Source: Octopus vulgaris
Lineage: Eukaryota
Assembly: GCA_951406725.2 (NCBI GenBank)
Contig: OX597814.1
Coordinates: 118,730,001-118,794,000, forward strand
Direction: 5' to 3'
Length of the DNA stretch: 64,000 bases
The notes under the pieces are model-generated. The model was not told where the DNA came from. It was given only the letters and a program-made list of their open reading frames with translations, and made no database searches. Positions 3,433 through 38,900 of the stretch are shown piece by piece. The position numbers and the translations under genes are program-made. Within the stretch, counting starts at the first letter, position 1, and every line of letters begins with the position of its first letter.

Positions 3433-5083
3433 AAAACTGTGAAAGCATTCAGCGATGACATCGGGATGGAGTTTGGACTTGAGAAGTGTGCCAAGGAACA
3501 CTTTCCAGAAACGAAATGTGAAGACCACAAATTCAGTCGTGTTAGATGTTGACACAGTCATAAGAGAGCTTGAGCAAGGACAAACATACAAATATTTAGG
3601 GATAAATGAAGGCTCTGGTATTCAGCATGCAAGCATGAAGAGAAGATCAGGAAGGAATGTTATAGGAGAGTTCGTGCAGTCCTGAAATCTGAACTAAATG
3701 CACGTATCAAGGTGTTAGCTATAAATTCCTTAGCAGTTCCAGTTGTTACTTATAGCTACAATGTGTTGAACTGGAATATGAGTGAAGTAAAGAATATAGA
3801 TAGGAAAATACGCAAGCTGCTGAGTTGTAATAGGATGCACCACCCAAAGGCAGACGTAGATCGCCTTTACCTTCCCAGAGCCCAAGGAGGTCGAGGCCTG
3901 ATCCAATTTGAACTATCTTACAAAACAACCACAATTGGACTGGCCAAATATCTCGAAATATCGAATGACTGGATGCTAAAGCTCGTGGAAAATCACGAGA
4001 CGAAAGAAGCTTCATTCTAGCATAAAGGAAAGCAAAAAATTTGCTATTGATCTCGTGCAGGATACCCAAACTGAACAACCCGAGGGAAGTACGGCAACTA
4101 TTGTTGCAAAAAGGTAAAAATAATGGCAACGAAAAAAGCGCACGAGCAATTGGCTGATAGGTGGGAAGAGAAAACTCTGCACGGCAAATATGTGGCCCGC
4201 AGCAAACAAGCTGATGTTGACCAGAAGCAAACCCATCAGTGGCTACGGAGCTCAGGGCTAAAAGCAGAGAGCGAAGGTTTCATCCTGGCTGCTCAAGATC
4301 AAAGCCTATTAACCCAGAACTACCAGGCCAATGTGATGAAAAATGGAGCAGACCCAAAATGCCGATTCTGCAACGACATGATTGAAACAGTGGACCACCT
4401 AATCTCTGGATGTAAAGTATTAGCCCCAGTGGAGTATAAATTAAGACATGACAGAGTTGGCCACTATCTACATTGGCTAATAGGTCGGTATTACAATATC
4501 AAAACTGCCGACAATTGGTATAATCACCACCCTGAGGCTGTAACTGAAGGAGAAAATGTAACCATTCTGTGGGACTTCCCAGTACATACAGACCGAACCA
4601 TCAAGGCCAATAAACCAGATATTGTTGTGAAAGACCAAAACAATAAAGTTTACTTATTGATCAACATGAGCATCCCCTGTGATCATAATATCTCAGCGAA
4701 AGAGTTTGACAAGCTCAGAAAATATAAAGACCTACTCATTGAAATTGAGAAAATGTGGCATCTCAAGGCGGTTACAATACCAGTGATCGTAGGAGCACTA
4801 GGAATGATCAAGAAGGGAACCGAAAATTATATGAGAATGATCCCTGGCTTACCATCCCTGCAAGAAGTGCAAAAGATTGTCTTAACTGGTACATCACACG
4901 TATTGAGAAGAGCATTGTCGATGTGAGAACTGTTGCTGCTCATGTATTTTAATTTAACTTGAAAAAAAAATGAACGAGTTTGGTTTAATCGCCTACCAAT
5001 GTATACTATGAGTTTCTTTGCCCTAGGAGTCGGGAAGACACTCGGCAAGAAATGGACGCAAATTTGAAAGAAGAAAAAAAAAG
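3433..5083 (+). mobile_element. R4/Dong-type retrotransposon, family B, 5'-truncated (RT thumb, CCHC, RLE), frameshifted
   Basis: YKYLGINE, LYLPRAQGGRGL, CRFCNDMIETVDHLISGC, RHDRVG, KPDIVVKD, KLRKYKDL across ORFs 3455-3685, 3712-4020 and 4123-4926; highly similar to the minus-strand copy at 34155-35905; flanked by (AAT)n. Confidence 0.93.
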
Positions 5084-13419: not shown

Positions 13420-13980
13420 AACGTTAGGACGCTGGCGAAATGCTTAGTGGCATTTCGTCTGTCGTTATGTTCTGAGTTCAAATTCCGCCGAGGTCGACTT
13501 TGCCTTTCAACCTTTCGGGGTCGATTATATAAGTACCAGTTACGCACTGGAGTCGATATAATCGACTTAATTCGTTTGTCCGTCCTTGTTCGTCCGCTCT
13601 GTGTTTAGCCCCTTGTCGGTAGTAAAGAATTAGGTATTTCGTCTGACGCTACGTTCTGAGTTCAAATTCCGACGAGGTCGAATTGCCTTTCATCCTTTCG
13701 GGGTCGATTAAATAAATACCAGTTACACACTGGGGTCGATATAATCGACTTAATCTGTTTCTCCGTCCTTGTTCGTCCCCTCTGTGTTTAGCCGCTTGTG
13801 GGTAGTAAAGAAATAGGTATTTCGTCTGTCTTTACGTTCTAAGTTCAAATTCCGCCGAGGTCCACTTTGCCTTTCATTCTTTCGGTGTCGATAAATTAAG
13901 TACCAGTCGCGTACTGAGGTCGATCTAATCCAATTAATCCCCTCCCCAAAATGTCGGGTCTTGTGCCTAGAGTAGAAAAT
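13420..13980 (+). mobile_element. Three tandem units of a tRNA-derived SINE (GAGTTCAAATTCCGCCGAGGTCGAC family)
   Basis: Three ~180-bp repeats with B box GAGTTCAAATTCC; the first two end ...CTCTGTGTTTAGCCnCTTGTnGGTAGTAAAG. Confidence 0.85.
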
Positions 13981-14039: not shown

Positions 14040-14081
14040 ACTAGCATTAAAGACCCGTCGTTGCCGGGTCATAGTGCTAGT
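14040..14081. mobile_element. Helitron-like 3' terminus (GC hairpin plus CTAG), palindromic
   Basis: ACTAGCATTAAAGACCCGTCGTTGCCGGGTCATAGTGCTAGT: GACCCG/CGGGTC stem with CTAG about 10 nt away on both sides. Confidence 0.5.
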
Positions 14082-14200
14082 GCATGTATATGTGTGTATA
14101 TATATATGTGTAAATATTACATGTACATCTACATATATACATCTACACATAAAATACAAAATACAAATTTATATCTTGATATCGCTAGTGATAACAATAC

Positions 14201-14528
14201 TCAAAATATATAACAGACTGGAATTGTTAGCCCGTCTCTTGTAATTTCGATCAATTGTATCTTGTCCTCACTCTTGTATAGAAGTGTGGCTACAATCCAG
14301 CCTACCTCAATTTCTGGGGGGGGGGGGGGTTTAAATATTTTTCCGGTACGTCCTACGTCCCAGATATAAAGGTAAGAATAAGATATTTCCACTTTGCAAG
14401 TTCGAGTCGTGTACTCCCTTGCACGCTCCGTTGACTCGAACCTTGTTTCTATTGGGGCGAATTTACCGCCTCTGATTAGATACCTTTCATAGTCGCACCA
14501 AGACACTTTTCGAAGGTGCTTTCCTCCA
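14201..14528 (-). pseudogene. Decayed ORF1/gag homologue, 3' half (the target locus interrupted by the array)
   Basis: Translates MEESTFEKCLGATM, then after a frameshift YLIRGGKFAPIETRF...PPEIEVGWIVATLL; this aligns with array protein EIAEIEKCLGDIM...YVSRGKKFGTVEVRC...PPEVKTEWLATAIL. Confidence 0.75.
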
Positions 14529-14772
14529 TGTGATTTTATTATTACCCACAAGGGGCGAACATAGAGGGGACAATACAATCGGGGAACTTAAAATAAGAAA
14601 GCGAATGACAAGAAAAGGAAAAAATAAAAGTAAAAAATGACATATGAAAGAATATTTACAATGAGATGTAAATGCCCACTCGATCCCCGGAATCGAGAGG
14701 TTACATTTTCGTCACATATATTTCACAATATTTTCTTTTTTTCTCTTCTTTCTTCTCTCTCTTCTCACAGTT

Positions 14773-15957
14773 CTATACATATTCCATGATAGTTTTCAAT
14801 TCTCTAAAGTCTATCACTGAGCCCTCAGGCAGCCGCTCTCTCACTCGAACACTCGTGTAAAATGTTACACTCTCACCGGCAGCTCTGAGGAACTCAGCGA
14901 CTCTTTCTTCGGGGATTAGAGCAGTCTCCTGCCACTGATCGGTCATCCTGTCGACCCACACATGTCCCTCCGTATTACTTGTCAAATCCTTCATTTCAGG
15001 GCAGAAATGGAAGGTTACTAACTTGTAGAAGCAGTAATCTTGTTTCCGTCCTACGTTTTCCTTCATTTTTCTTTTCGGGCTTATTTCTTCCTTGTTCTCC
15101 TCTCTTTGTTTCTCTCTTTCTCTCTTTTTGCCTTCTTTTCTTTCTCCTTCCTTCTCTTGTCTTTTTGGTTCTTTGTCTGTTCTCTCTTTCTCTCGTGTTT
15201 TATGTTCCTTTTCTTTTTCTTTTTGTGTGCCGTCTTTTCTTTTCGTTTGATTCTGATCTCTCTCTTGTTTTTTTCCTGTTGTTTCTTTTTCCTTTTTTTT
15301 TTCCTGACTCTGTTTTGGTTCTATTTCTTTCTTTTCTTTTATTTCTTTTTCCTTCATTGACTTATTATTTCCTTTCTCTTGTTGTTTTGTTTCCTTTTCT
15401 ATGTTTTCTTTTTCATTTACCGTATTCTTCTTTTCTTCGAGTTCCTGCTCGCACTCCGCTACGAATTCGTATAACGGGCACTCTTTTTTAATGTGCCCCC
15501 TTGTCCCGCACAAGTAGCAGTTTGGCTTTCTTCCCTCTACAATTACACTGAGGGTTTTCTCATCTTCAATTTCTATTCTGTAGGGGAACCTTTCAATGTC
15601 CTCTTTTGTGGCCATCAAACACAGTTCTACCCCATATCCTCTCCAGTTTATCGCGTTGGACTCCTTAAAGGATTCCACCTCCACTTCCTCTTCTGCTGCT
15701 CCTAGAATAGCTGTTGCCAGCCATTCTGTTTTTACTTCTGGGGGTATATTCGGGATTTTAACCCGGACCCCTCTTCTTCCCTTGTATGAGGGCCACATTA
15801 TAAATGTTTCCGCTCTTAGTACAGTGGTAGCCAGTGAGGCTGCAATTTCTTCCGTTGCACATCTCACCTCCACCGTACCAAATTTCTTGCCTCTACTCAC
15901 GTAGGTCGATTTCCCCATTATGTCTCCCAGACATTTTTCGATTTCTGCTATCTCCAC
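14773..15957 (-). CDS. ORF1/gag-like nucleic-acid-binding protein, unit 1 (394 aa from GTG; likely true start is the ATG at 16178, one frame off)
   Basis: CX2CX4HX4C knuckle CYLCGTRGHIKKEC preceded by VIVEGRKPN and an RRM-like region (VRVKIPNIPPEV), then a long K/E-rich tract; L1/Tx1-type ORF1 architecture. Confidence 0.8.
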   Translation of the reverse strand: MEIAEIEKCLGDIMGKSTYVSRGKKFGTVEVRCATEEIAASLATTVLRAETFIMWPSYKGRRGVRVKIPNIPPEVKTEWLATAILGAAEEEVEVESFKESNAINWRGYGVELCLMATKEDIERFPYRIEIEDEKTLSVIVEGRKPNCYLCGTRGHIKKECPLYEFVAECEQELEEKKNTVNEKENIEKETKQQEKGNNKSMKEKEIKEKKEIEPKQSQEKKKEKETTGKKQERDQNQTKRKDGTQKEKEKEHKTREKERTDKEPKRQEKEGERKEGKKREREKQREENKEEISPKRKMKENVGRKQDYCFYKLVTFHFCPEMKDLTSNTEGHVWVDRMTDQWQETALIPEERVAEFLRAAGESVTFYTSVRVRERLPEGSVIDFRELKTIMEYV

Positions 15958-16558
15958 TCTTGCCAGTTTCTTTGTATTTTTGTCTTGTGTTCTATATGTT
16001 ACAGTCTTGTTTTCTTTGTCCTCTTTTGCTTTCGCGGGGGGATTAGCTTCACGCTATCACCCTCCCTTTTTAATAGCTTTTCATATTCTTTGAGTTTACT
16101 CTTCTCAAAGAAAACATCCTTCACGATTATCGACGAATCATTATTTTTCTTTCCCGTGACCCCCGCGTAAGTCGCCATGACTAGAGGGTCAATTCACCTT
16201 CTTCGGAAGGTTTCCACACGTGGAGGCAAACGCCTCGCGCGATAATAATCAATTTACACAACAAAATTTCACTGTCTAGTCACAGATAACAACACACGTG
16301 GGTAAATTTCCTCGCTGTGATTTTATTATTACCCACAAGGGGCGAACATAGAGGGGACAATACAATCGGGGAACTTAAAATAAGAAAGCGAATGACAAGA
16401 AAAGGAAAAAATAAAAGTAAAAAATGACATATGAAAGAATATTTACAATGAGATGTAAATGCCCACTCGATCCCCGGAATCGAGAGGTTACATTTTCGTC
16501 ACATATATTTCACAATATTTTCTTTTTTCTCTTCTTTCTTCTCTCTCTTCTCACAGTT

Positions 16559-17742
16559 CTATACATATTCCATGATAGTTTTCAATTCTCTAAAGTCTAT
16601 CACTGAGCCCTCAGGCAGCCGCTCTCTCACTCGAACACTCGTGTAAAATGTTACACTCTCACCGGCAGCTCTGAGGAACTCAGCGACTCTTTCTTCGGGG
16701 ATTAGAGCAGTCTCCTGCCACTGATCGGTCATCCTGTTGACCCACACATGTCCCTCCGTATTACTTGTCAAGTCCTTCATTTCAGGGCAGAAATGGAAGG
16801 TTACTAACTTGTAGAAGCAGTAATCTTGTTTCCGTCCTACGTTTTCCTTCATTTTTCTTTTCGGGCTTATTTCTTCCTTGTTCTCCTCTCTTTGTTTCTC
16901 TCTTTCTCTCTTTTTGCCTTCTTTTCTTTCTCCTTCCTTCTCTTGTCTTTTTGGTTCTTTGTCTGTTCTCTCTTTCTCTCGTGTTTTATGTTCCTTTTCT
17001 TTTTCTTTTTGTGTGCCGTCTTTTCTTTTCGTTTGATTCTGATCTCTCTCTTGTTTTTTTCCTGTTGTTTCTTTTTCCTTTTTTTTTCCTGACTCTGTTT
17101 TGGTTCTATTTCTTTCTTTTCTTTTATTTCTTTTTCCTTCATTGACTTATTATTTCCTTTCTCTTGTTGTTTTGTTTCCTTTTCTATGTTTTCTTTTTCA
17201 TTTACCGTATTCTTCTTTTCTTCGAGTTCCTGCTCGCACTCCGCTACGAATTCGTATAACGGGCACTCTTTTTTAATGTGCCCCCTTGTCCCGCACAAGT
17301 AGCAGTTTGGCTTTCTTCCCTCTACAATTACACTGAGGGTTTTCTCATCTTCAATTTCTATTCTGTAGGGGAACCTTTCAATGTCCTCTTTTGTGGCCAT
17401 CAAACACAGTTCTACCCCATATCCTCTCCAGTTTATCGCGTTGGACTCCTTAAAGGATTCCACCTCCACTTCCTCTTCTGCTGCTCCTAGAATAGCTGTT
17501 GCCAGCCATTCTGTTTTTACTTCTGGGGGTATATTCGGGATTTTAACCCGGACCCCTCTTCTTCCCTTGTATGAGGGCCACATTATAAATGTTTCCGCTC
17601 TTAGTACAGTGGTAGCCAGTGAGGCTGCAATTTCTTCCGTTGCACATCTCACCTCCACCGTACCAAATTTCTTGCCTCTACTCACGTAGGTCGATTTCCC
17701 CATTATGTCTCCCAGACATTTTTCGATTTCTGCTATCTCCAC
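16559..17742 (-). pseudogene. ORF1/gag-like, unit 2, frameshifted in an A-run
   Basis: ORFs 16867-17742 and 16559-16852 together reproduce the unit 1 protein. Confidence 0.75.
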
Positions 17743-18344
17743 TCTTGCCAGTTTCTTTGTATTTTTGTCTTGTGTTCTATATGTTACAGTCTTGTTTTCT
17801 TTGTCCTCTTTTGCTTTCGCGGGGGGATTAGCTTCACGCTATCACCCTCCCTTTTGAATAGCTTTTCATATTCTTTGAGTTTACTCTTCTCAAAGAAAAC
17901 ATCCTTCACGATTATCGACGAATCATTATTTTTCTTTCCCGTGACCCCCGCGTAAGTCGCCATGACTAGAGGGTCAATTCACCTTCTTCGGAAGGTTTCC
18001 ACACGTGGAGGCAAACGCCTCGCGCGATAATAATCAATTTACACAACAAAATTTCACTGTCTAGTCACAGATAACAACACACGTGGGTAAATTTCCTCGC
18101 TGTGATTTTATTATTACCCACAAGGGGCGAACATAGAGGGGACAATACAATCGGGGAACTTAAAATAAGAAAGCGAATGACAAGAAAAGGAAAAAATAAA
18201 AGTAAAAAATGACATATGAAAGAATATTTACAATGAGATGTAAATGCCCACTCGATCCCCGGAATCGAGAGGTTACATTTTCGTCACATATATTTCACAA
18301 TTTTTTTCTTTTTCTCTTCTTTCTTCTCTCTCTTCTCACAATTC

Positions 18345-19520
18345 TACACATATTCCATGATAGTTTTCAATTCTCTAAAGTCAATCACTGAGCCCTCAGG
18401 CAGCCGCTCTTTCACTCGAACACCGTGTAAAATGTTACACTCTCACCGGCAGCTCTGAGGAACTCAGCGACTCTTTCTTCGGGGATTCAGAGCAGTCTCC
18501 TGCCACTGATCAGTCATCCTGTTGACCCACACATGTCCCTCCATACTACATGTCAATTCCTTCATTTCAGGGCAGAAATGGAAGGTTACTAACTTGTAGT
18601 AATCTTGTTTCCGTCCTACGTTTTCTCTCTTTTTCTTTTCGGGCTTATTTCTTCCTTGTTCTCCTCTCTTTGTTTCTCTCTTTCTCTCTTTTTGCCTTCT
18701 TTTCTTTCTCCTTCCTTCTCTTGTCTTTTTGGTTCTTTGTCTGTTCTCTCTTTCTCTCGTGTTTTATGTTCCTTTTCTTTTTCTTTTTGTGTGCCGTCTT
18801 TTCTTTTCGTTTGATTCTGATCTCTCTCTTGTTTTTTTCCTGTTGTTTCTTTTTCCTTTTTCTTTTCCTGACTCTGTTTTGGTTCTATTTCTTTCTTTTC
18901 TTTTATTTCTTTTTCCTTCGTTGACTTATTATTTCCTTTCTCTTGTTGTTTTGTTTCCTTTTCTATGTTTTCTTTTTCATTTACCGTATTCTTCTTTTCT
19001 TCGAGTTCCTGCTCGCACTCCGCTATGAATTCATATAACGGGCACTCTTTTTTAATGTGCCCCCTTGTCCCGCACAAGTAGCAGTTTGGCTTTCTTCCTC
19101 TACAATTACACTGAGGGTTTTCTCATCTTCGATTTCTATTCTATAGGGGAACCTTTCAATGTCCTCTTTTGTGGCCATCAAACACAGTTCTACCCCATAT
19201 CCTCTCCAATTTACTGCGTTGGACTCCTTAAAGGATTCCACCTCCACTTCCTCTTCTGCTGCTCCTAGAATAGCTGTTGCCAGCCATTCTGTTTTTACTT
19301 CTGGGGGTATATTCGGGATTTTAACCCGGACCCCTCTTCTTCCCTTGTATGAGGGCCACATTATAAATGTTTCCGCTCTTAGAACAGTGGTAGCCAGTGA
19401 GGCTGCAATTTCTTCCGTTGCACATCTCACCTCCACCGTACCAAATTTTTTTCCTCTACTCACGTAGGTCGATTTATCCATTATGTCTCCCAGACATTTT
19501 TCGATCTCTGCTATCTCCAC
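18345..19520 (-). pseudogene. ORF1/gag-like, unit 3, several frameshifts
   Basis: ORFs 19023-19520 and 18616-19077 plus a broken C-terminus. Confidence 0.75.
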
Positions 19521-20125
19521 TCTTGCCAGTTTCTTTGTACTTTTGTCCTTGGGTTCTATATGTTACAGTTTTGTTTTCTTTGTCCTCTTTTGCTTTCGCG
19601 GGGGGATTAGCTTCACGCTATCACCCTCCCTTTTGAATAGCTTTTCATATTCTTTGATTTTACTTTTCTCAAAGAAAACATCCTTCACGATTATTCGACG
19701 AATCATTATTTTTCTTTCCCGTGACCCCCGCGTAAGTCGCCATGACTAGAGGGTCAATTCACCTTCTTCGGAAGGTTTCCAAACGTGGAGGCAAACGCCT
19801 CGCGCGATATTAATCACTTTACACAACAAAATTTCAACTGTCTAATCACAGATAACAACACACGTGGGTAAATTTCCTCGCTGTGATTTTATTACTACCC
19901 ACAAGGGGCGAACATAGAGGGGACAATACAATCGGGGAACTTAAAATAAGAAAGCGAAATGACAAGAAGGGAAAAAATAAAAATAAAAATGACAAATGAA
20001 AGAATATTTACAATGAGATGCAAATGCCCACTCGATCCCCGGAATCGAGAGGTTACATTTTCGTCACATATAGTTCACAATTTTTTTTCTTTTTTCTCTT
20101 CTTTCTTCTCTCTCCTCTCACAATC

Positions 20126-21303
20126 TCACACGTATTCCATAATACTTTTCAAGTCTCTAAAGTCAATCACTGAGCCCTCAGGCAGCCGCTCTTTCACTCG
20201 AACACCCGTGTAAAAAATTACACTCTCTCCAGCTGCTCTGAGGAACTCAGCGACTCTTTCTTCGGGGATCAGAGCAGTCTCCTGCCACTGATCAGTCATC
20301 CTGTTGACCCACACATGTCCCTCCATACTACATGTCAATTCCTTCATTTCGGGGCTGAAATGGAAGGTTATTAACTTGTAGTAATCTTGCTTCCGTCCTA
20401 CGTTTTCTCTCGTTTTTCTTTTCGGGCTTATTTCTTCCTTGTTCTCCTCTCTTTGTTTCTCTCTTTCTCTCTTTTTGCCTTCTTTTCTTTCTTCTTCCTT
20501 CTCTTGTCTTTTTGGTTCTTTGTCTGTTCTCTCTTTCTCTCGTGTTTTATGTTCCTTTTCTTTTTCTTTTGTGTGCCGTCTTTTCTTTTCGTTTGGTTCT
20601 GTTCTCTCTCTTGTTTTTTTCCTGTTATTTCTTTTTCCTTTTTCTTTTCCTGACTCTGTTTTGGTTCTATTTCTTTCTTTTCTTTTATTTCTTTTTCCTT
20701 CGTTGACTTATTATTTCCTTTCTCTTGTTGTTTTGTCTCCTTTTCTATGTTTTCTTTTTCATTTACCGTATTCTTCTTTTCTTCAGTTTCCTTCTCATAC
20801 TCCGCCATGAATTCATATAACGGGCACTCTTTTTTAATGTGCCCCCTTGTCCCGCACAAGTAGCAGTTTGGCTTTCTTCCCTCTACAATTACACTGAGGG
20901 TTTTCTCGTCTTCGATTTCTATTCTATAGGGGAACCTTTCAATGTCCTCTTTTGTGGCCATCAAACACAGTTCTACCCCATATCCTCTCCAATTTACTGC
21001 GTTGGACTCCTTAAAGGATTCCACCTCCACTTCCTCTTCTGTTGCTCCTAGAATAGCTGTTGCCAGCCATTCTGTTTTTACTTCTGGGGGTATATTCGGG
21101 ATTTTAACCCGGACCCCTCTTCTTCCCTTGTATGAGGGCCACATTATAAATGATTCCGCTCTTAGAACAGTGGTAGCCAGTGAGGCTGCAATTTCTTCCG
21201 TTGCACATCTCACCTCCACCGTACCAAATTTTTTTCCTCTACTCACGTAGGTCGATTTATCCATTATGTCTCCCAGACATTTTTCGATCTCTGCTATCTC
21301 CAC
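20126..21303 (-). pseudogene. ORF1/gag-like, unit 4, frameshifted in an A-run
   Basis: ORFs 20428-21303 and 20126-20347 match the unit 5 protein. Confidence 0.75.
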
Positions 21304-21907
21304 TCTTGCCAGTTTCTTTGTACTTTTATCCTGGGTTCTATACGTTACAGTTTTGTTTTCCTTGTCCTCCTTTGCTTTCGCGGGGGGATTAGCTTCACGC
21401 TATCACCCTCCCTTTTGAATAGCTTTTCATATTCTTTGATTTTACTTTTCTCAAAGAAAACATCCTTCACGATTATTGCCGAATCATTATTATTCTTTCC
21501 CGTGACCCCCGCGTAAGTCGCCATGACTAGAGGGTCAATTCACCTTCTTCTGAAGGTTTCCAAACGTGGAGGCAAACGCCTCGCGCGATATTAATCACTT
21601 TACACAACAAAATTTCAATGTCTAATCACAGATAACAACACACGTGGGTAAATTTCCTCGCTGTGATTTTATTACTACCCACAAGGGGCGAACATAGAGG
21701 GGACAATACAATCGGGGAACTTAAAATAAGAAAGCGAAATGACAAGAAGGGAAAAAATAAAAATAAAAATGACAAATGAAAGAATATTTACAATGAGATG
21801 CAAATGCCCACTCGATCCCCGGAATCGAGAGGTTACATTTTCGTCACATATAGTTCACAATTTTTTTTTTCTTTTTTCTCTTCTTTCTTCTCTCTCCTCT
21901 CACAATC

Positions 21908-23086
21908 TCACACGTATTCCATAATACTTTTCAAGTCTCTAAAGTCAATCACTGAGCCCTCAGGCAGCCGCTCTTTCACTCGAACACCCGTGTAAAAAAT
22001 TACACTCTCTCCAGCTGCTCTGAGGAACTCAGCGACTCTTTCTTCGGGGATCAGAGCAGTCTCCTGCCACTGATCAGTCATCCTGTTGACCCACACATGT
22101 CCCTCCATACTACATGTCAATTCCTTCATTTCGGGGCTGAAATGGAAGGTTATTAACTTGTAGTAATCTTGCTTCCGTCCCACGTTTTCTCTCGTTTTTC
22201 TTTTCGGGCTTATTTCTTCCTTGTTCTCCTCTCTTTGTTTCTCTCTTTCTCTCTTTTTGCCTTCTTTTCTTTCTTCTTCCTTCTCTTGTCTTTTTGGTTC
22301 TTTGTCTGTTCTCTCTTTCTCTCGTGTTTTATGTTCCTTTTCTTTTTCTTTTTGTGTGCCGTCTTTTCTTTTCGTTTGGTTCTGTTCTCTCTCTTGTTTT
22401 TTTCCTGTTATTTCTTTTTCCTTTTTCTTTTCCTGACTCTGTTTTGGTTCTATTTCTTTCTTTTCTTTTATTTCTTTTTCCTTCGTTGACTTATTATTTC
22501 CTTTCTCTTGTTGTTTTGTCTCCTTTTCTATGTTTTCTTTTTCATTTACCGTATTCTTCTTTTCTTCAGTTTCCTTCTCATACTCCGCCATGAATTCATA
22601 TAACGGGCACTCTTTTTTAATGTGCCCCCTTGTCCCGCACAAGTAGCAGTTTGGCTTTCTTCCCTCTACAATTACACTGAGGGTTTTCTCGTCTTCGATT
22701 TCTATTCTATAGGGGAACCTTTCAATGTCCTCTTTTGTGGCCATCAAACACAGTTCTACCCCATACCCTCTCCAATTTACTGCGTTGGACTCCTTAAAGG
22801 ATTCCACCTCCACTTCCTCTTCTGCTGCTCCTAGAATAGCTGTTGCCAGCCATTCTGTTTTTACTTCTGGGGGTATATTCGGGATTTTAACCCGGACCCC
22901 TCTTCTTCCCTTGTATGAGGGCCACATTATAAATGATTCCGCTCTTAGAACAGTGGTAGCCAGTGAGGCTGCAATTTCTTCCGTTGCACATCTCACCTCC
23001 ACCGTACCAAATTTTTTTCCTCTACTCACGTAGGTCGATTTATCCATTATGTCTCCCAGACATTTTTCGATCTCTGCTATCTCCAC
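21908..23086 (-). CDS. ORF1/gag-like nucleic-acid-binding protein, unit 5 (392 aa from GTG)
   Basis: Uninterrupted ORF with the same CCHC knuckle; variant of the unit 1 protein. Confidence 0.8.
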   Translation of the reverse strand: MEIAEIEKCLGDIMDKSTYVSRGKKFGTVEVRCATEEIAASLATTVLRAESFIMWPSYKGRRGVRVKIPNIPPEVKTEWLATAILGAAEEEVEVESFKESNAVNWRGYGVELCLMATKEDIERFPYRIEIEDEKTLSVIVEGRKPNCYLCGTRGHIKKECPLYEFMAEYEKETEEKKNTVNEKENIEKETKQQEKGNNKSTKEKEIKEKKEIEPKQSQEKKKEKEITGKKQEREQNQTKRKDGTQKEKEKEHKTREKERTDKEPKRQEKEEERKEGKKREREKQREENKEEISPKRKTRENVGRKQDYYKLITFHFSPEMKELTCSMEGHVWVNRMTDQWQETALIPEERVAEFLRAAGESVIFYTGVRVKERLPEGSVIDFRDLKSIMEYV

Positions 23087-23448
23087 TCTTGCCAGTTTCT
23101 TTGTACTTTTGTCCTGGGTTCTATACGTTACAGTTTTGTTTTCCTTGTCCTCCTTTGCTTTCGCGGGGGGATTAGCTTCACGCTATCACCCTCCCTTTTG
23201 AATAGCTTTTCATATTCTTTGATTTTACTTTTCTCAAAGAAAACATCCTTCACGATTATCGACGAATCATTATTTTTCTTTCCCGTGACCCCCGCGTAAG
23301 TCGCCATGACTAGAGGGTCAATTCACCTTCTTCTGAAGGTTTCCAAACGTGGAGGCAAACGCCTCGCGCGATATTAATCACTTTACACAACAAAATTTCA
23401 ACTTCTAATCACAGATAACAACACACGTGGGTAAATTTCCTCGCTGTG

Positions 23449-23530
23449 CTCAAATCTTCTTTCTTCTCTACATTGTATACTTTATAGACAATAGTCTTTT
23501 CTTTAATTTTCTTTAATTACTTCCATTTCT
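23449..23530 (-). pseudogene. Decayed ORF1/gag homologue, 5' half (continues across the array into 14528)
   Basis: Minus strand reads IKEKTIVYKSIQCREERRFEH and joins in frame through CACA to MEESTFEKCLG; compare the array's ENKTVTYRTQDKNTKKLARVEIAEIEKCLG. Confidence 0.65.
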
Positions 23531-23769
23531 GCACGCTAATTTTATTTTTAATTTATTCTCATTCATGTGAAAACACTTATTCAAGTTCAAATCATTGATG
23601 CAATTTTATACCAATTGCTATTTTTACTTTTGTTATGTTACTTTAGTTTGATTTTAATTATTACTTACTACATATAATTCAATTGTTATTATTATTTTTC
23701 TTGTTAAAGTGAAAGTATCTGACATAAAATAGAGAAACTTTTTTGTTTCACGTTTAACACGTAATACTG

Positions 23770-23972
23770 AAATAGTGGAGAAGATATGATGTTGCTATGG
23801 TCTCGCTCTAGGCAAGAAGTTGAATAATTCTTTTTTTGCCCATGAAACTACATGGACCCTAAGTAAGGCATGTGTAAAATTTGAATGGAATTGGTTGTGT
23901 AGTTCTCAAGTTTTAGGGAATTGTAGCGGAGAAGATATGATATTGCTGTGGGCTCGCGCTAGGCAAAAATTC
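23770..23972. repeat. Direct repeat (GGAGAAGATATGATnTTGCT...CTAGGCAA twice) with a non-autonomous Helitron-like internal segment
   Basis: Repeats at 23773-23820 and 23923-23970; the intervening AAAATTTGAATGGAATTGGTTGTGTAGTTCTCAAG resembles motifs common in non-autonomous Helitrons (inference). Confidence 0.4.
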
Positions 23973-24769
23973 AAATTATAGAGGTTTTCCATTAATACAA
24001 AACTTTTCATATCAAGTGGCAACATTATAGAGAAGGTAGATATATAGACAAAAATTTGGATTTAAGTTTTAAGAACATTTGAGGTAGTGGAGCCCATCAA
24101 CTGACTGACTAAGATTCAGTTGTTCCAGACTACTGTAAGGTTCTGAGAGGGAAGAACAAATGAAAAGAGACAATAAAGATTTTCTAATTATAGAATTGGG
24201 GTAAAGGGGATGTCAGGGCTCCATATAAGGAATTTATGTAGAAAACAGCATCGTCACAACTAAATGCCAATTACTACTATTTGATGGACAGATTCGGCGT
24301 TAGGGGAACTAGGTCAATGTCAAGTGGTCACAATATCATTCACAGAGAATGCAGAGACATTACAAACCCTATGCACATCATTACAACAGTTGGTCTATAA
24401 GTTCCAAGTTCTTTGACACGTTAGAATAAAGGAAAAAATATAAATCTAAAACGTATTCAATTTGGAGAAAAAGACTATCACTTATTATGAGTAGGCATAG
24501 TACTTATTAACTGGGGGGAAAAGCCTTATTAATCAAGTGAACATATTAGGGGTCAAAATATATATTAAGAAAGATGGAAGAGGGAAAATCAAAGGAGGAA
24601 GATATTCATAGGTTTAGTAGAAGGTGATATTTTATAATATGAAGAGAGATAATTTAGAAGAGTAAATTATTCAAATTTTATGGATAGTGAGTTGATATTA
24701 ACGAATTAAAATATAGGATCTGTTGGAAATAAAATTTACTACCTGCGGATAAAAGTTAATGAGGAAAAA

Positions 24770-25665
24770 ATATCTTAGGTTAATTATATATTAAGAAATG
24801 GGAGTGAGATAATTAAGATGAACCAAATAGTTTCCCTAGGGAAATAGGATTAATACTACTTAGTATTGGAGAACATTATAAAAAAGAATTTAATTCTAAG
24901 TTTGCAATGAAGTTTTTTAATCATCTATGAGTGTTTAACTAAAACCACTATGGTATATTCTTTCCTATTTGGTTAAATATATTTTGTAAAGATATCTTAG
25001 GAGGCGCAGAAGTGGCTGTGTGGTAAGTAGCTTGCTAACCAACCACATGGTTCCAGGTTCAGTCCCACTGCGTGGCATCTTGGGCAAGTGTCTTCTGCTA
25101 TAGCCCCGGGCCGACTAATGCCTTGTGAGTGGATTTGGAAGACGGAAACTGATAGAAGCCTGTCGTATATATGTATATATATGTTTGTGTGTGTGTTTGT
25201 CTGTCTGTGTTTGTTCCCCTAGCATTGCTTGACAACCGAAGCTGGTGTGTTTACGTCCCCGTCACTTAGCGGTTCGGCAAAATATACCGATAGAATAAGT
25301 ACTGGGCTTACAAAGAATAAGTTCCGGGATCGATTTGCTCGACTAAAGGCGGTGCTCCAGCATGGCCGCAGTCAAATGACTGAAACAAGTAAAAGAGTAA
25401 AAGAGTAAGAGAGACTAATTATATATTAAGAAATGGAAGTGAGATAATCAAGGTGAACCGAATAGTTTCTTTAGGGGCATAGGATTCATACTATTTAGTA
25501 CTCCTACTATTTGGGATTCATACTATTTAGGATTCCAACTATTTAGATTCATACAGTTTAATTTTAGAAAAAATAATTCAATTTTAATTTTGCAGTGAAG
25601 TTTTTTAGTCAACTATGAATGTTAAATTGAAAACCAGTATGGTATATTCCTTCTTATTTGATTAT
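24770..25665. repeat. Diverged ~200-bp tandem duplication with a SINE inserted at the start of the second unit
   Basis: TAATTATATATTAAGAAATGG...GGTATATTC at 24781-24960 and 25416-25650; the leader ATCTTAGG|TAATT of unit 2 is split by the SINE. Confidence 0.75.
24982..25412 (+). mobile_element. Full-length tRNA-derived SINE (same family as 10013-10455)
   Basis: GGCGCAGAAGTGGCTGTGTGGTAAG (A box), GGTTCAGTCCC (B box), TTGGGCAAGTGTCTTC, internal TA/TG repeats, (AAAGAGT)n tail. Confidence 0.9.
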
Positions 25666-34154: not shown

Positions 34155-35905
34155 TTTTTTTTTCTTCTTTCAAATTTTCTTCCGTTTCTTGCCGAGTGTC
34201 TTCCCGACTCCTAGGGCAAAGAAACTCATAGTGTATATTGGTAGGCGATTAAACCAAACTCAGTAGTTCGTTCATATTTTTTTTTTTTTTTTTTTTTGTA
34301 AAGTTAAATTAAAATACATGAGCAGCAACAGTTCTCACATCGACAATGCTCTTCTCAATACGTGTGATGTACCAGTTAAGACAATCTTTTGCACTTCTTG
34401 CAGGGGTGGTAAGCCAGGGATCATTCTCATATAATTTTCGGTTCCCTTCTTGATCATTCCTAGTGCTCCTACGATCACTGGTATTGTAACCGCCTTGAGA
34501 TGCCACATTTTCTCAATTTCAATGAGTAGGTCTTTATATTTTCTGAGCTTGTCAAACTCTTTCGCTGAGATATTATGATCACAGGGGATGCTCATGTCGA
34601 TCAATAAGCAAACTTTATTGTTTTGGTCTTTCACAACAATATCTGGTTTATTGGCCTTGATGGTTCGGTCTGTATGTACTGGAAAGTCCCACAGAATCGT
34701 TACATTTTCTCCTTCAGTTACAGCCTCAGGGTGGTGATTATACCACTTGTCGGCAGTTTTGATATTGTAATGCCGACTTATTAGCCAGTGGAGATATTGG
34801 CCAACTCTGTCATGTCTTAATTTATACTCCACTGGTGCTAAGACTTTACATCCAGAGATTAGGTGGTCCACTGTTTCAATCATGTCGTTGCAGAATCGGC
34901 ATTTTGGGTCTGCTCCATTTTTCATCACATTGGCCTGGTAGTTCCGGGTTAATAGGCTTTGGTCTTGAGCAGCCAGGATGAAACCTTCGCTCTCTGCTTT
35001 TAGCCCTGAGCTCCGCAGCCACTGATGGGTTTGCTTCTGGTCAACATCAGCTTGTTTGCTGCGGGTCACATATTTGCCGTGCAGAGGTTTCTCCTCCCAC
35101 CTATCAGCCAATTGCTCGTGCGCTTTTTTCATTGCCGTCATTTTCACCTTCTTTGCAACAATAGTTGCCGTACTTCCCTCGGGTTGTTCAGTTTGGGTAT
35201 CCTGCACGAGATCAATAGCAAATTTTTTGCTTTCCTTGATGATAGAATGAAGCTTCTTTCGTCTCTCGTGATTTTCCACGAGCTTTAGCATCCAGTCATT
35301 CGATATTTCGAGATATTTGGCCAGTCCAATTGTGGTTGTTTTGTAAGCTAGTTCAAATTGGATCAGGCCTCGACCTCCTTGGGCTCTGGGAAGGTAAAGG
35401 CGATCTACGTCTGCCTTTGGGTGGTGCATCCTATTACAACTCAGCAGCTTGCGTATTTTTCTATCTATATTCTTTACTTCACTCATATTCCCGTTCAACA
35501 CATTGTAGCTATAAGTAACAACTGGAACTGCTAAGGAATTTATAGCTAACACCTTGTTACGTGCATTTAGTTCAGATTTCAGGACTGCACGAACTCTCCT
35601 ATAACATTCCTTCCTGATTTTCTCTTTCATGCTTGCATGCTGAATACCGGAGCCTTCATTTATCCCTAAATATTTGTATGTTTGTTCTTGCTCAAGCTCT
35701 CTTATGACTGTGTCAACATCTAACACGACTGAATTTGTGGTCTTCACTTTCCCTTTCTGGAAAGTGGCCTTGGCACACTTCTGAAGTCCAAACTCCATCC
35801 CGATGTCATCGCTGAATGCTTTCACGGTGCGCAATAGGCCTTCAAGTTCATTATTGTCTTTACCATAAAGTTTTAAGTCATCCATATAAAATAGATGGCT
35901 TATTT
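34155..35905 (-). mobile_element. R4/Dong-type retrotransposon, family B, 5'-truncated at RT domain 5
   Basis: Begins HLFYMDDLKLY; bounded by (TTA)n on both sides; 3' UTR matches 4927-5083. Confidence 0.95.
34335..35885 (-). CDS. C-terminal 516 aa of an RT/CCHC/restriction-like endonuclease polyprotein (uninterrupted, N-terminally truncated)
   Basis: (Y)MDDLKLY, FGLQKCA, YKYLG, GGRGL, CRFC...HLISGC, RHD, KPDIVV..LIDMSIP, KLRKY. Confidence 0.9.
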   Translation of the reverse strand: MDDLKLYGKDNNELEGLLRTVKAFSDDIGMEFGLQKCAKATFQKGKVKTTNSVVLDVDTVIRELEQEQTYKYLGINEGSGIQHASMKEKIRKECYRRVRAVLKSELNARNKVLAINSLAVPVVTYSYNVLNGNMSEVKNIDRKIRKLLSCNRMHHPKADVDRLYLPRAQGGRGLIQFELAYKTTTIGLAKYLEISNDWMLKLVENHERRKKLHSIIKESKKFAIDLVQDTQTEQPEGSTATIVAKKVKMTAMKKAHEQLADRWEEKPLHGKYVTRSKQADVDQKQTHQWLRSSGLKAESEGFILAAQDQSLLTRNYQANVMKNGADPKCRFCNDMIETVDHLISGCKVLAPVEYKLRHDRVGQYLHWLISRHYNIKTADKWYNHHPEAVTEGENVTILWDFPVHTDRTIKANKPDIVVKDQNNKVCLLIDMSIPCDHNISAKEFDKLRKYKDLLIEIEKMWHLKAVTIPVIVGALGMIKKGTENYMRMIPGLPPLQEVQKIVLTGTSHVLRRALSM

Positions 35906-35988: not shown

Positions 35989-38900
35989 TGACTTTTGCTT
36001 TATGTTTGTACAAGTTGGCTCCAAGTCTCACCCAGAGACCTCAAGAGACATACATTTGGGGTTTTTTTGGTGTTGCACTAGTGAATGTCTAATAAATAAA
36101 TTTTTTTTAAAGTTTGTTTTAAACCTTGAGATTACATTGAGAGTATTTTGCGTAGGATATGAGCAGTTCCCATGAGCACTATCTTTTCAATTTCTGCCAT
36201 TTTGGGGTTTCCTGGTATCTGAGTTAGGTAGCAATCAGCCCCTTTCGCTATCATTCCCAGGGCACCTATGCCAACAGGTATTGTTTTAGTCTTCAGCTTC
36301 CACATTTTGCTGATTTCTATTTCAAGATCTTTATATTTGCTCAGTTTTTGGTAGGTCTTGACAGATACGTTTATATCGATTGGGACAGTCATATCAATGA
36401 GGAGGCATGTTCTTTGTCTGAAGTCTTTCAATATGATGTCTGGCCTATTTGCATCTATCTTTCTGTCAGTTGAATGGCGAAGTTCCTGAGGAGTGAGATG
36501 TGGTCATTTTTAAGCACTGGAGGTGGATTGTGTTCCCACCAGTTTTTTTCATGGGGCAAATCCAAGTTTTTGCAAATTACCCAGTGAATTTATTGTGCAG
36601 CTCTATCATGTCTGTTGAGGTACTCTGTAAGCGCTAGAAGACTGCACTTGGAGACAACATGATCAATGGTTTCATTTTGTTGTCGGCATACACGACATGT
36701 TGGGCTACTGCCGCTCTTTAATATGTTGGCCTGGTACGAGGGGCGTTCAATAAGTAATGCCCCTGACCCACTTCCCATAGCAGTAGAGGAACGACACATG
36801 GCACAGTTATTAGTCTTTTCCTACATAGGAACTACCCAGAGTTATGCATTTCTCCCATCGTTTGATACAGCTCTGGAGACCGTTTTTGTAGAAGACCCCA
36901 GCTTGGTCCTCCAACCACGACGTGACTTCAGAAATCAAGGCTGCATCATCTGGGAAACGCTTTCCTTTCAAAATCAACTTCATGGCTGGGAAGAGGTGAA
37001 AATCAGAGGGTGCAAGGGGAGGAGTTCATAGCTGCACGCCTGTGCTTCTGATCTGGCGACACGCGAGTTGTGGACCGGAGCGTTGTCCTGCAGGAGGAGG
37101 ATGCCTTTGCTGATCTTGCCCCGCCTCTTGATTTTGATAGCTACTCTTAATTTCTTCAAAAGGCTCCTGCATAATAGGCTCCTGTAATTGTGGTACCCTT
37201 TGCCAGGAAATCTGTCATCACTACTCCGTCCTGGTCCCAGAAGACTGTGAGCATAACCTCGTCAGCGGAGGGCTGCACCCTTGCCTTATTTGGAGGAGGT
37301 GAGTCACGGTGCTTCCACTGCATTGACTGGGCTTTGGTCTATGGATCATAGTGATGGACCCAGGTTTTTCCTGTGTGATCAGTCTTTTGAAAAATTTTGA
37401 CTCATCTTCTTGGCACATCTCCAAATTCATCCTCGAGCACTCAACGCGTTCTTGCTTCTGGAAAGGTGTGAGCAACCTGGAAATCCATCTGACAGACAGA
37501 CACCTTTTGCATATGCAAATGGTCATGAATGATAGTTTCCACAGACCCGGTACTAATCTTGACCTTATGGGCTATTTGGCGAATAGTTATGCGTTGACCT
37601 TCCAAAATGGCAGCCTGAACTTGACGGACAGACGTCTCATCAATGGCAGAAGGGGGCGACCAAATCTGGGAGCTGTTTCCACAGAGTTCCGACTATGTTT
37701 GAATTCACAATGCCAGTGTTTTACAAGGGCATATGATGGGGCATCATCACCATAAGTTACTTTCATTTCATCAAAAGTCTCCCGTGGTGTGCGTCCTTTC
37801 AAATACAAAAAACAGATCACTGCTCGACACTCAACAGGCTCCATTTCACACTTGACTCAGTTCAAACACCTGTAAATCAGAAACCACAATTAGTTTAGAG
37901 CTGTAATACGCCACTTACTCTATAGAGGTATAGATAAGTGCACATGCAAAATGTCAGCTAGATCAAACAACTGCAAGTGGGTCAGAGGCATTACTTATTG
38001 AACGCCTCTCGTAGTTTCTTGTTGGTAGGCATTGATCTTGAGCTGCTATGATAAACTCTTCTGTTTCAGATTTTAAGCCTGAGGCTATTAGCCATTGATG
38101 GGTCAGGGCTTTGTCGATATTTGCATTATTCGCTCTCTTTGGGTATTTGCCATAGAGAGGTTTTTCTTGCCATTTATTATTCAGAATATCTAAGGCCGCA
38201 GTTTTGGCACGGGTTTTCATGCGCCTAGCTTTTTCTGTGCTTGTTTCTTGTATGTCTATCTCTAATTCCGAAATTGGTTGTATTCGGAATTCACTTAGAT
38301 ATTCCTTTGCCTGTTTTGTGACTGAGTATGATGCTTTCTTGTTTTTATGTTTTGAGACAAGTTTTAACATTCAGTCCTCAGACTTTTTCAGGTAAGTGTC
38401 TAGGCCAATTGTAGCAATCTTCATTGTTATTGCCAGTTGTTAAAGACCAGGGCCTCCCTCTTTTCTTGGCAGATAAAGTCGTTCTGTATCTGCCTTAGGG
38501 TGGTGCATTCTATGCATTGTCAACAGTTTTCGTATTTTTCTGTCGAGCTGACATATTTCAGTAATTGACCTGTTAACGATATTGAAACTGTAAGTCACGA
38601 CTGGTATGGCTAATGCATTGATCGCTTCGATCCTGTTTCTTGCATTCAGCTCTGTCTTGAGTATTGCTCTCACTCTTCGATAACATTCTCTCCTGATCCT
38701 TTCCTTCATCTCTGAATGCCTTATTCCGTTCCCTTCAATTACCCCTAGGTACTTGTAGCTCGCCGCTGGGTCTAGTTCTTTTATGACATTCTGCTGTCAA
38801 GGTTAATGTTAGATGTTTTTGTCATTTTGCACATTTATCGAGGCCGAATTGCATTCTGATGTCGTCACTGAATTATTTGACTATCGCTAGTAAGCCCTTG

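What the first reader, a model, noticed from the sequence alone, without database searches (positions are those of the whole stretch)
14529..23448. Five-unit head-to-tail array of an ORF1-only (gag-knuckle) retroelement with no RT or endonuclease
Seen: five complete ~1,783-bp units in the same orientation. Each has a ~140-nt 5' UTR, one protein (RRM-like region, CX2CX4HX4C knuckle, K/E-rich tract, short C-terminal domain) and a 3' UTR ending in AATAAA with no poly(A). There are no partial units at either end. Known: this architecture resembles L1/Tx1-clade ORF1, and ORF1-only non-autonomous elements exist (HAL1, HeT-A). Inference: this is a protein-coding non-autonomous retroelement that supplies its own RNA chaperone and borrows ORF2 in trans. 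Exact whole-unit boundaries fit element-level insertion better than an arbitrary segmental duplication.
Basis: partly seen in the sequence, partly recalled or inferred. Interest (0 to 1): 0.9.

Follow-up and report, generated by a model that had tools for sequence, protein, structure and literature searches.

The report
Gag-only retroelements stacking inside octopus Helitrons
In the octopus genome, a jumping element that encodes only an RNA-binding protein sits in head-to-tail stacks at one spot inside another common transposon; it likely borrows the copying enzyme of a full-length partner found at the same spot, and the stacks likely grow from one end, so they would record the order of past insertions.

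Summary
The unit, family A, is a dispersed ORF1-only retroelement of Octopus vulgaris. Its 3' motif has 136 exact genomic matches, and one array has 22 units. The protein is 469 aa (two predicted RRM-like folds, CCHC knuckle) and under purifying selection (pN/pS 0.17).

Units are separated by copies of a 12-bp target duplication. An autonomous 5.2-kb L1/Tx1-group element (B1; ORF1 plus endonuclease-RT) uses the same site and shares only a 47-nt 3' tail with A. Other ORF1-only families join the same trains.

Unit order is polar: derived subtypes lie at the Helitron-5' end (p = 0.003 and 0.0002), fitting insertion into the upstream duplication. All five window ORFs are frameshifted as assembled, probably largely through homopolymer errors.

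Each ingredient has a precedent (HAL1/HeT-A, Tx1 targeting transposons, R1 tandem arrays). I did not find this combination in my paper searches; Repbase and Dfam were not available.

The parts
14041..14519 (-). 3' arm of the host non-autonomous Helitron-like element; ends in hairpin 14052-14070 and CTAG 14041-14044, followed by T
   Evidence: 93% to the 3' arm of an empty copy; 545 exact genomic copies of the hairpin+CTAG end; T follows CTAG in 15 of 15 scored loci
14520..14531 (-). Downstream copy of the 12-bp target duplication, in the pristine host form ACATGGAGGAAA
   Evidence: Occurs once in empty hosts
14532..16306 (-). Unit 1 (3'-most, inferred oldest). ORF1 from ATG 16178 to stop 14773, broken only at the C run as assembled
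   Evidence: 4 substitutions from copies on C13 and C20, 3 from unit 2
14534..14580 (-). 47-nt 3' tail shared with the autonomous partner B1; repeated at 16321-16367, 18106-18152, 19887-19933, 21667-21713
   Evidence: 96-98% identity, the only A-B1 nucleotide match found
16307..16318 (-). Inter-unit junction, variant duplication ACAGCGAGGAAA; the same at 18092-18103, 19873-19884, 21653-21664
16319..18091 (-). Unit 2, ATG 17963; less-derived subtype like unit 1
18104..19872 (-). Unit 3, ATG 19743; mosaic or intermediate subtype, several frame breaks as assembled
   Evidence: 39-50 substitutions from each neighbour, nearest other-locus unit 30
19885..21652 (-). Unit 4, ATG 21524; derived subtype
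   Evidence: 8 substitutions from a C9 unit, 9 from unit 5
21665..23435 (-). Unit 5 (5'-most, inferred newest), ATG 23307, stop 21908; derived subtype
   Evidence: 6 substitutions from units on C7 and C17, 9 from unit 4
23436..23447 (-). Upstream copy of the target duplication (variant ACAGCGAGGAAA), preceded by host GATTTGAGC
23448..23975 (-). 5' arm of the host Helitron-like element, lacking about 145 nt of its 5' end
   Evidence: 92% to positions 145-680 of the 5' arm of an empty copy

Best explanation
The array is five copies of an ORF1-only retroelement (family A) lying at one site inside a non-autonomous Helitron-like element, separated by 12-bp target duplications; it is likely copied in trans by the endonuclease-RT of the autonomous L1/Tx1-group element B1, and new copies likely enter at the upstream duplication, so the train would grow at its 5' end.

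Steps. (1) A is transcribed; the promoter is unknown, and the RNA probably starts in the upstream junction (inferred). (2) Its own ORF1 (two predicted RRM-like domains plus a CCHC knuckle) likely packages its RNA in cis (inferred from purifying selection). (3) B1 ORF2 likely binds the shared 47-nt tail (the tail is shown; binding is inferred). (4) It would nick at GATTTGAAC^ACATGG and prime reverse transcription, leaving a 12-17 bp duplication (junctions shown; chemistry inferred from known TPRT). (5) The upstream copy of the duplication keeps the Helitron sequence 5' of the nick and is likely reused, giving polar trains of A, B1 and sister families (order shown; cause inferred). Local tandem duplication may add units to long arrays.
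For: Dispersed family: 46 matches on 13 contigs; 136 exact 3'-motif matches, reversed-pattern control 0.
Empty target: 26 of 29 other host 5' arms run straight into the host 3' arm; 330 exact empty sites.
Site use: 26 of the first 30 motif hits in genome order are A ends, and all 26 are followed by another A (13), B1 (11) or the host 3' arm (2). Of the first 30 of 138 B1 ends, 28 are followed by the host arm (22, one at a second site) or a family member (6).
Partner: 1131-aa ORF2 with Exo_endo_phos, RVT_1 and zf-RVT; best solved relative human L1 ORF2, E 9e-66, against R2 4e-26.
Duplications: 46 of 81 A units have identical 12-mers at both junctions, 59 within one mismatch. At C20, C3:52.2M and C3:38.2M, A duplicated its downstream neighbour's unusual 5' junction, so it arrived upstream of an earlier element. 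A 5'-truncated off-target copy has a ~17-bp duplication.
Not hitchhiking: host arms of filled loci differ by a median 4.4-6.3%, the window's by at least 3.5% from any other, while A units at different loci differ by as little as 2-4 of 1741 sites.
Selection: shared single-change variants 37 nonsynonymous vs 65 synonymous, pN/pS 0.17; 2 substitution stops in 73 units; codons 1-46, before the C run, 0.20.
Polarity: tau negative in 9 of 12 arrays, p 0.0002; by tree depth 9 negative, 3 zero, 2 positive of 14, p 0.003.
Against: No experiment shows B1 mobilising A. B2 and B1 subfamilies have similar tails and could be the partner.
Only 4 of 73 A units are intact as assembled. 102 of 137 frameshift indels lie near homopolymers, but 35 do not, and no reads were examined.
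22 of 81 units have junctions differing at 2 or more of 12 positions, so 5' junctions are not always simple duplications.
Polarity exceptions: C23 and C10:47.7M; C9 and C10:105M positive and C23 zero. Units are mosaics, so tree depth is only a proxy for age. Outgroup polarisation is weak (42 vs 27, 43 vs 26, 33 vs 23 sites), and the private-substitution test is borderline (p 0.05).
A 22-unit array beside 330 empty sites, containing substitution-identical units, is not random independent insertion. Local amplification or strong re-targeting is needed.
Clade Tx1 rather than L1 rests on architecture and one named hit at 38%.
Confidence: 0.82

Rival explanations
1. One or two A copies insert by retrotransposition, and the arrays then grow mainly by unequal crossing-over or gene conversion between units.
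For: Six C7 units have no substitutions between them; window units 1/2 differ by 3 and units 4/5 by 9. Many units are mosaics. Array sizes are far more clumped than random.
Against: Window units 1-2 and 4-5 differ by 86-89 substitutions. Units 3, 4 and 5 are each closer to a unit on another chromosome than to any neighbour, and unit 2 is equally close. Trains mix A, B1, E and B2 families. Crossing-over gives no consistent polarity across chromosomes. It probably contributes in long arrays.
Confidence: 0.1
2. Whole multi-unit trains are copied at once, as read-through transcripts ending in one tail or as cargo of the Helitron, so unit order is inherited from a donor locus.
For: Unusual junction 12-mers recur at different loci (for example ACGTGTCGGAAA at 4 loci). 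The A-then-B1 order is common.
Against: Host arms of filled loci are as divergent as those of empty ones, which argues against Helitron transport. Train composition differs from locus to locus. Donor-derived short leaders would explain the shared junctions.
Confidence: 0.05
3. A is a dead internal-deletion derivative of B1 whose ORF1 is only a passenger.
For: Most copies are frameshifted as assembled.
Against: A and B1 ORF1 are only 34% identical over 206 aa, and no DNA similarity was found outside the tail. pN/pS is 0.12-0.20 in the N-terminal domains. Sister families A2/A3 keep the same architecture at about 71% DNA identity.
Confidence: 0.02
4. The array is an assembly artefact or a host gene cluster.
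For: Homopolymer lengths vary among otherwise identical units; several copies carry 'uncharacterized protein' annotations.
Against: Units differ by up to 5% in a structured way shared with other chromosomes. Empty sites exist. The ORF has no introns.
Confidence: 0.01

Closest known systems
HAL1 (half-L1), HeT-A and Ag-Sponge: ORF1-only non-autonomous LINEs
   Same: One ORF1-type protein, no RT or endonuclease, a LINE-like 3' end, dependence on an autonomous partner (PMC5786205, PMC5753468, passages read).
   Different: Those derive from the L1, Jockey and CR1 clades. Here the partner is Tx1-like and site-specific, ORF1 is only 34% identical to the partner's, several ORF1-only families coexist, and there is no poly(A).
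Tx1-clade elements targeting other transposons (Tx1L in piggyBac Tx1D; crocodilian Tx1-Mar and SINEU-3 in Mariner-N4_AMi; Tx1-9_AMi in Harbinger)
   Same: An APE-RT element inserting at a fixed site in a non-autonomous DNA transposon. A non-autonomous passenger shares the target, and tandem SINEU-3 copies sandwich a duplication (PMC4494074, passages and section 15).
   Different: The target is a Helitron-like element, which was not among the targets in the passages I read. The passenger is protein-coding. Trains reach 22 A units plus a B1.
Tandem R1 arrays in Drosophila 28S rDNA
   Same: Copies are separated by the duplication, and new copies are proposed to insert into the duplication at the 5' end of earlier ones (PMC2718515, passage in section 13).
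   Different: R1 is autonomous, of another clade, and sits in rDNA under concerted evolution; 2-3 copies per unit. Here the sites are dispersed and a subtype gradient along the arrays is measurable.
Drosophila telomeric HeT-A/TART/TAHRE arrays
   Same: Head-to-tail mixed arrays of gag-only and RT-bearing elements, extended at the 5' end (PMC6719617, passages; direction recalled).
   Different: Interstitial, endonuclease-type insertion with target duplications; no host function is evident.

Membership tests
ORF1-only non-autonomous LINE (HAL1/HeT-A/Ag-Sponge type) | Encodes only an ORF1-type protein, no RT or endonuclease | tested here: met
   Single 469-aa ORF with zf-CCHC only; RRM-like folds predicted; homologous to the ORF1 of the autonomous element, E 1e-41; no ORF2 match in the window
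ORF1-only non-autonomous LINE (HAL1/HeT-A/Ag-Sponge type) | Dispersed copies with retrotransposition marks (fixed 3' end, target duplication, 5' truncation) | tested here: met
ORF1-only non-autonomous LINE (HAL1/HeT-A/Ag-Sponge type) | 3' end shared with an autonomous LINE | tested here: met
   47 nt at 96-98% with B1
ORF1-only non-autonomous LINE (HAL1/HeT-A/Ag-Sponge type) | Mobilised in trans by the partner's ORF2 | not testable with these tools
   Inferred from the shared tail and target
HAL1 in the strict sense (derived from mammalian L1) | L1-type ORF1 and poly(A) tail (definition partly recalled) | tested here: not met
   No poly(A) at the 3' junctions; ORF1 is of the RRM+CCHC type
L1/Tx1 group (partner B1) | ORF1 with knuckle plus ORF2 with APE, RT and C-terminal zinc motif | tested here: met
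Tx1 clade (partner B1) | RT phylogeny groups it with named Tx1 elements | tested here: inconclusive
   No tree with named references was built. One hit named 'Transposon TX1 149 kDa protein' at 38%; most of the 120 listed hits are unnamed
Tx1 clade (partner B1) | Target-sequence preference | tested here: met
   28 of 30 B1 3' ends are followed by the host arm or a family member
Non-autonomous Helitron (host) | 5' TC, 3' hairpin plus CTAG, inserted between A and T (features recalled) | tested here: met
   ATCTTTAT 5' motif in 24 of 30 loci; T after CTAG in 15 of 15 scored
Non-autonomous Helitron (host) | Autonomous RepHel partner with the same ends | not tested
   Not searched

The most novel reading that the evidence does not exclude
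Octopus carries a community of Tx1-type retroelements: at least two autonomous families and two deep lineages of ORF1-only families kept under selection. They share one Helitron as landing pad and build interstitial, one-ended, time-ordered trains. This is a telomere-free counterpart of the HeT-A/TART/TAHRE system, in which each array is a readable record of element succession. The gag-only members may persist because their ORF1 wins access to the partner's RT, or even aids it.
Probability: 0.55. Interest if true: 0.72.

Novelty: new variant of a known kind. Interest (0 to 1): 0.6.

Why it matters
Why gag-only LINE derivatives keep their protein has been studied mainly at Drosophila telomeres, where a host function confounds it. 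Here young, near-identical ORF1-only and autonomous elements share a defined target and a 47-nt tail with no evident host role. That makes cis-preference, parasitism and cooperation directly testable. Polar arrays order subfamilies in time without a clock. The system adds a Helitron-like target to those I found described for Tx1-type endonucleases. In practice, these copies are annotated as host 'uncharacterized proteins' in O. vulgaris.

Tried and rejected
No read-level check was obtained, so the unit count and homopolymer lengths rest on the assembly. The run search listed no holder on record as RNA, which says nothing about expression.

A programmed frameshift at the C run was considered. 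Run length varies (6 in 50 units, 7 in 16, 8-14 in 6, unscored in 1) even among substitution-identical units, which fits sequencing error or slippage better.

LTR, DIRS or Penelope structure was rejected: there are no terminal repeats, and the junctions are target duplications. Helitron hitchhiking was rejected by arm divergence.

My by-eye guess of a degraded L1 ORF2 at 24000-24990 was not supported by tblastn with the partner ORF2.

The ORF1-only versus autonomous ORF1 tree has long branches and no root, so it cannot count origins.

C-terminal domain (residues 384-469): no Pfam or Atlas hit, one VIA-align row at Z 7.1. The separate fold job had not finished. Its fold is open.

The tail hairpin is weak (-5 to -9 kcal/mol, no shuffle control) and is not used as evidence.

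Earlier scan findings: none. Bao and Jurka 2010 and Christensen 2000 were not held.
Full report
OBSERVATION. Five head-to-tail units lie on the minus strand with periods of 1780-1787 bp, 94.4-99.7% identical to unit 1. As assembled, none reads as one ORF: all five break at one C run near codon 48, and units 2-4 break again. A natural intact copy on C10 gives 469 aa. It has a CCHC knuckle at 220-235 and two predicted RRM-like domains at about 49-136 and 134-218. The model has mean pLDDT 59.8, about 70-85 in these domains; the best Foldseek hit is IMP3 RRM12 at E 9e-6, and the best VIA Z is 8.8, rmsd 2.4, 78 aligned. A K/E tract follows, then a small alpha/beta C-terminal domain of unknown family.

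A DISPERSED FAMILY. The window lies in a 2.8-Gb genome; the nine protein relatives found are all named Octopus vulgaris. One unit gave 46 matches on 13 contigs from only 21 of 1455 candidates scored. A 28-nt 3' motif has 136 exact matches against 0 for the reversed control. By my count the 100 listed matches fall in about 49 loci, one of them a 22-unit array on C7. Four of the first 30 matches belong to sister families.

THE TARGET. Both flanks are repeated. Of 29 other loci matching the upstream flank, 26 run directly into the downstream flank (two of them lacking about 290 nt around the site), 2 into an ORF1-only sister and 1 into an autonomous element. The empty junction occurs 330 times exactly. 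The host is about 1.15 kb. It starts A|TCTTTAT in 24 of 30 loci and ends in a hairpin and CTAG, followed by T in 15 of 15 scored loci; that end has 545 exact copies. These are the marks of a non-autonomous Helitron (recalled); its autonomous partner was not sought. In the window the host lacks about 145 nt at its 5' end.

THE PARTNER AND THE TRAINS. Flanks of 33 regions show trains of the form host-5' arm, [A]n, often B1, host-3' arm. B1 is 5.2 kb, with ORF1 and a 1131-aa ORF2 carrying endonuclease, RT and zf-RVT domains. Among solved structures it is closest to human L1 ORF2; one relative is named Tx1. B1's 3' motif has 138 exact matches, and 28 of the first 30 are followed by the host arm or a family member. 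All 26 true A ends among the first 30 are followed by A, B1 or the host arm, one of them in a train outside the Helitron. A and B1 share 47 nt at the 3' end at 96-98% and no other DNA match was found; their ORF1 cores are 34% identical. The same host also holds a second autonomous family (B2) and further ORF1-only families (E1-E4, A2/A3), with related tails and partly shifted sites.

JUNCTIONS. For 81 full-length A units, the 12 nt at the two junctions are identical in 46, differ by one in 13, and by two or more in 22. Solo copies show clean duplications of the host sequence (C17, 12 bp). At C20, C3:52.2M and C3:38.2M, A duplicated the unusual 5' junction of the element downstream, so it arrived upstream of an earlier element. 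A 5'-truncated A on C11 sits off-target with a ~17-bp duplication, again starting C^ACATG. Odd 5' junctions recur between loci, which suggests that transcripts carry a short donor leader (inference; compare R1, PMC2718515 section 18, read in full). In the window the four internal junctions and the 5' junction are the variant ACAGCGAGGAAA, and only the 3'-most is pristine. That is what repeated entry at the upstream copy would give.

INDEPENDENT INSERTION. Host arms of filled loci differ by a median 4.4% (left, 24 loci) and 6.3% (right, 18 loci), like empty ones (3.6%, 5.7%; 22 loci). The window's arms are at least 3.5% from any other. A units at different loci differ by as few as 2-4 of 1741 sites. 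Window units 1-2 versus 4-5 differ by 86-89, and units 3, 4 and 5 are nearer to a unit on another chromosome than to any neighbour. Against pure independence: six C7 units have no substitutions between them, and array sizes are strongly clumped, so tandem duplication or strong re-targeting also acts.

POLARITY. Scoring 87 sites that separate two subtypes, the share of one subtype falls from the 5' to the 3' end in 9 of 12 multi-unit arrays, rises in 2 and is flat in 1 (permutation p 0.0002). A tree rooted on A2/A3 is a ladder with that subtype most derived (24 selected A units). Using tree depth on 83 units and leaving out the array used as root, 9 of 14 arrays are negative, 3 zero and 2 positive (p 0.003); the window reads 123, 120, 82, 66, 66. 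Caveats: units are mosaics; loci were chosen by similarity to the window and by an exact motif; outgroup polarisation site by site is weak (42:27, 43:26, 33:23); private substitutions differ only at p 0.05.

SELECTION. Across 73 units, single-change variants seen in 3 or more units are 37 nonsynonymous and 65 synonymous (pN/pS 0.17), with 12 further multi-change nonsynonymous codons left out of that ratio. Rare variants give 0.46, and 1.13 in the C-terminal domain alone. There are 2 substitution stops. With multi-change codons included, codons 1-46 give 0.20 and codons 50-238 give 0.12. Variants are not independent, so the p values overstate the case, but the direction is clear. Only 4 of 73 units are intact. 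102 of 137 frameshift indels lie near homopolymers, which cover about 20% of the ORF, and run lengths vary among substitution-identical units. A public assembly of this species was built from Nanopore and 10x reads (PMC13282606, parts 1-2 of 3 read). Many breaks are therefore probably errors; this was not checked with reads.

MECHANISM. Shown: ORF1-only content, shared tail, shared site, duplications, polar order, selection. Inferred: transcription start, cis packaging by A ORF1, trans use of B1 ORF2, TPRT chemistry, and 5' addition as the cause of polarity. Confidence 0.82.

WHAT IS KNOWN. ORF1-only LINE derivatives are listed for the Jockey (HeT-A), L1 (HAL1) and CR1 (Ag-Sponge) clades (PMC5786205, passages). 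Tx1 elements target piggyBac, Mariner, Harbinger and LTR elements, and tandem SINEU-3 copies sandwich a duplication (PMC4494074, passages and section 15). Tandem R1 arrays are explained by insertion into the 5' duplication (PMC2718515, passage). The O. vulgaris repeat paper counts 13 recently active L1-Tx1 families and 8 Helitron families, and the parts I read do not describe targets; its supplement and Zenodo library were not seen. Nine searches (mostly listings only) showed no Tx1-type ORF1-only element and no Helitron-targeted LINE. Repbase, Dfam and two key papers were out of reach. PMC6719617, PMC5753468, PMC8869645 and PMC11203168 were seen as passages.

VERDICT. A real, young, site-specific ORF1-only retroelement, and a new variant of a known kind. 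The ingredients have precedents. The combination of a Helitron-like target, several selected gag-only families riding with autonomous partners, and measurable time order in dispersed arrays was not found in my searches. Interest 0.6.

Noticed in passing
window 13452-13940: 2.7 tandem copies of a 183-bp unit containing, on the + strand, a stretch resembling the shared 3' tail; possibly a short repeat mobilised by the same machinery (by eye).
   Followed up: no
window 4123-4926 (+), 34335-35885 (-), 37963-38370 (-): ORF fragments that look like the C-terminal part of an RTE-type LINE ORF2 (label by eye, not tested).
   Followed up: no
L111-L115 (G000 C7:100.09-100.13 Mb): 22 A units plus one B1 inside one host copy, with another B1 end about 15 kb further on; shares the window's junction variant.
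   Followed up: partly
L130 (C2:46.86 Mb) and L128-L129 (C3:38.18 Mb): Two off-Helitron B1 copies share a 5' junction. The C2 target resembles the C3 flank, hinting that flanking RNA may help choose the target; one case only.
   Followed up: partly
L031, L035, L039, L041, L126, L131, L139: Further ORF1-only families (E1-E4, A2/A3) and a second autonomous family B2 in the same host, some with 5' junctions about 10 bp upstream or at a site about 290 bp downstream.
   Followed up: partly
L043-L044 (C32): Two 3'-truncated A units restart at an internal AAAGAAAT microhomology within a train.
   Followed up: no
window 24000-24990: A-rich stretch abutting the truncated host 5' end; looked LINE-like by eye but had no tblastn match to the partner ORF2.
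   Followed up: partly
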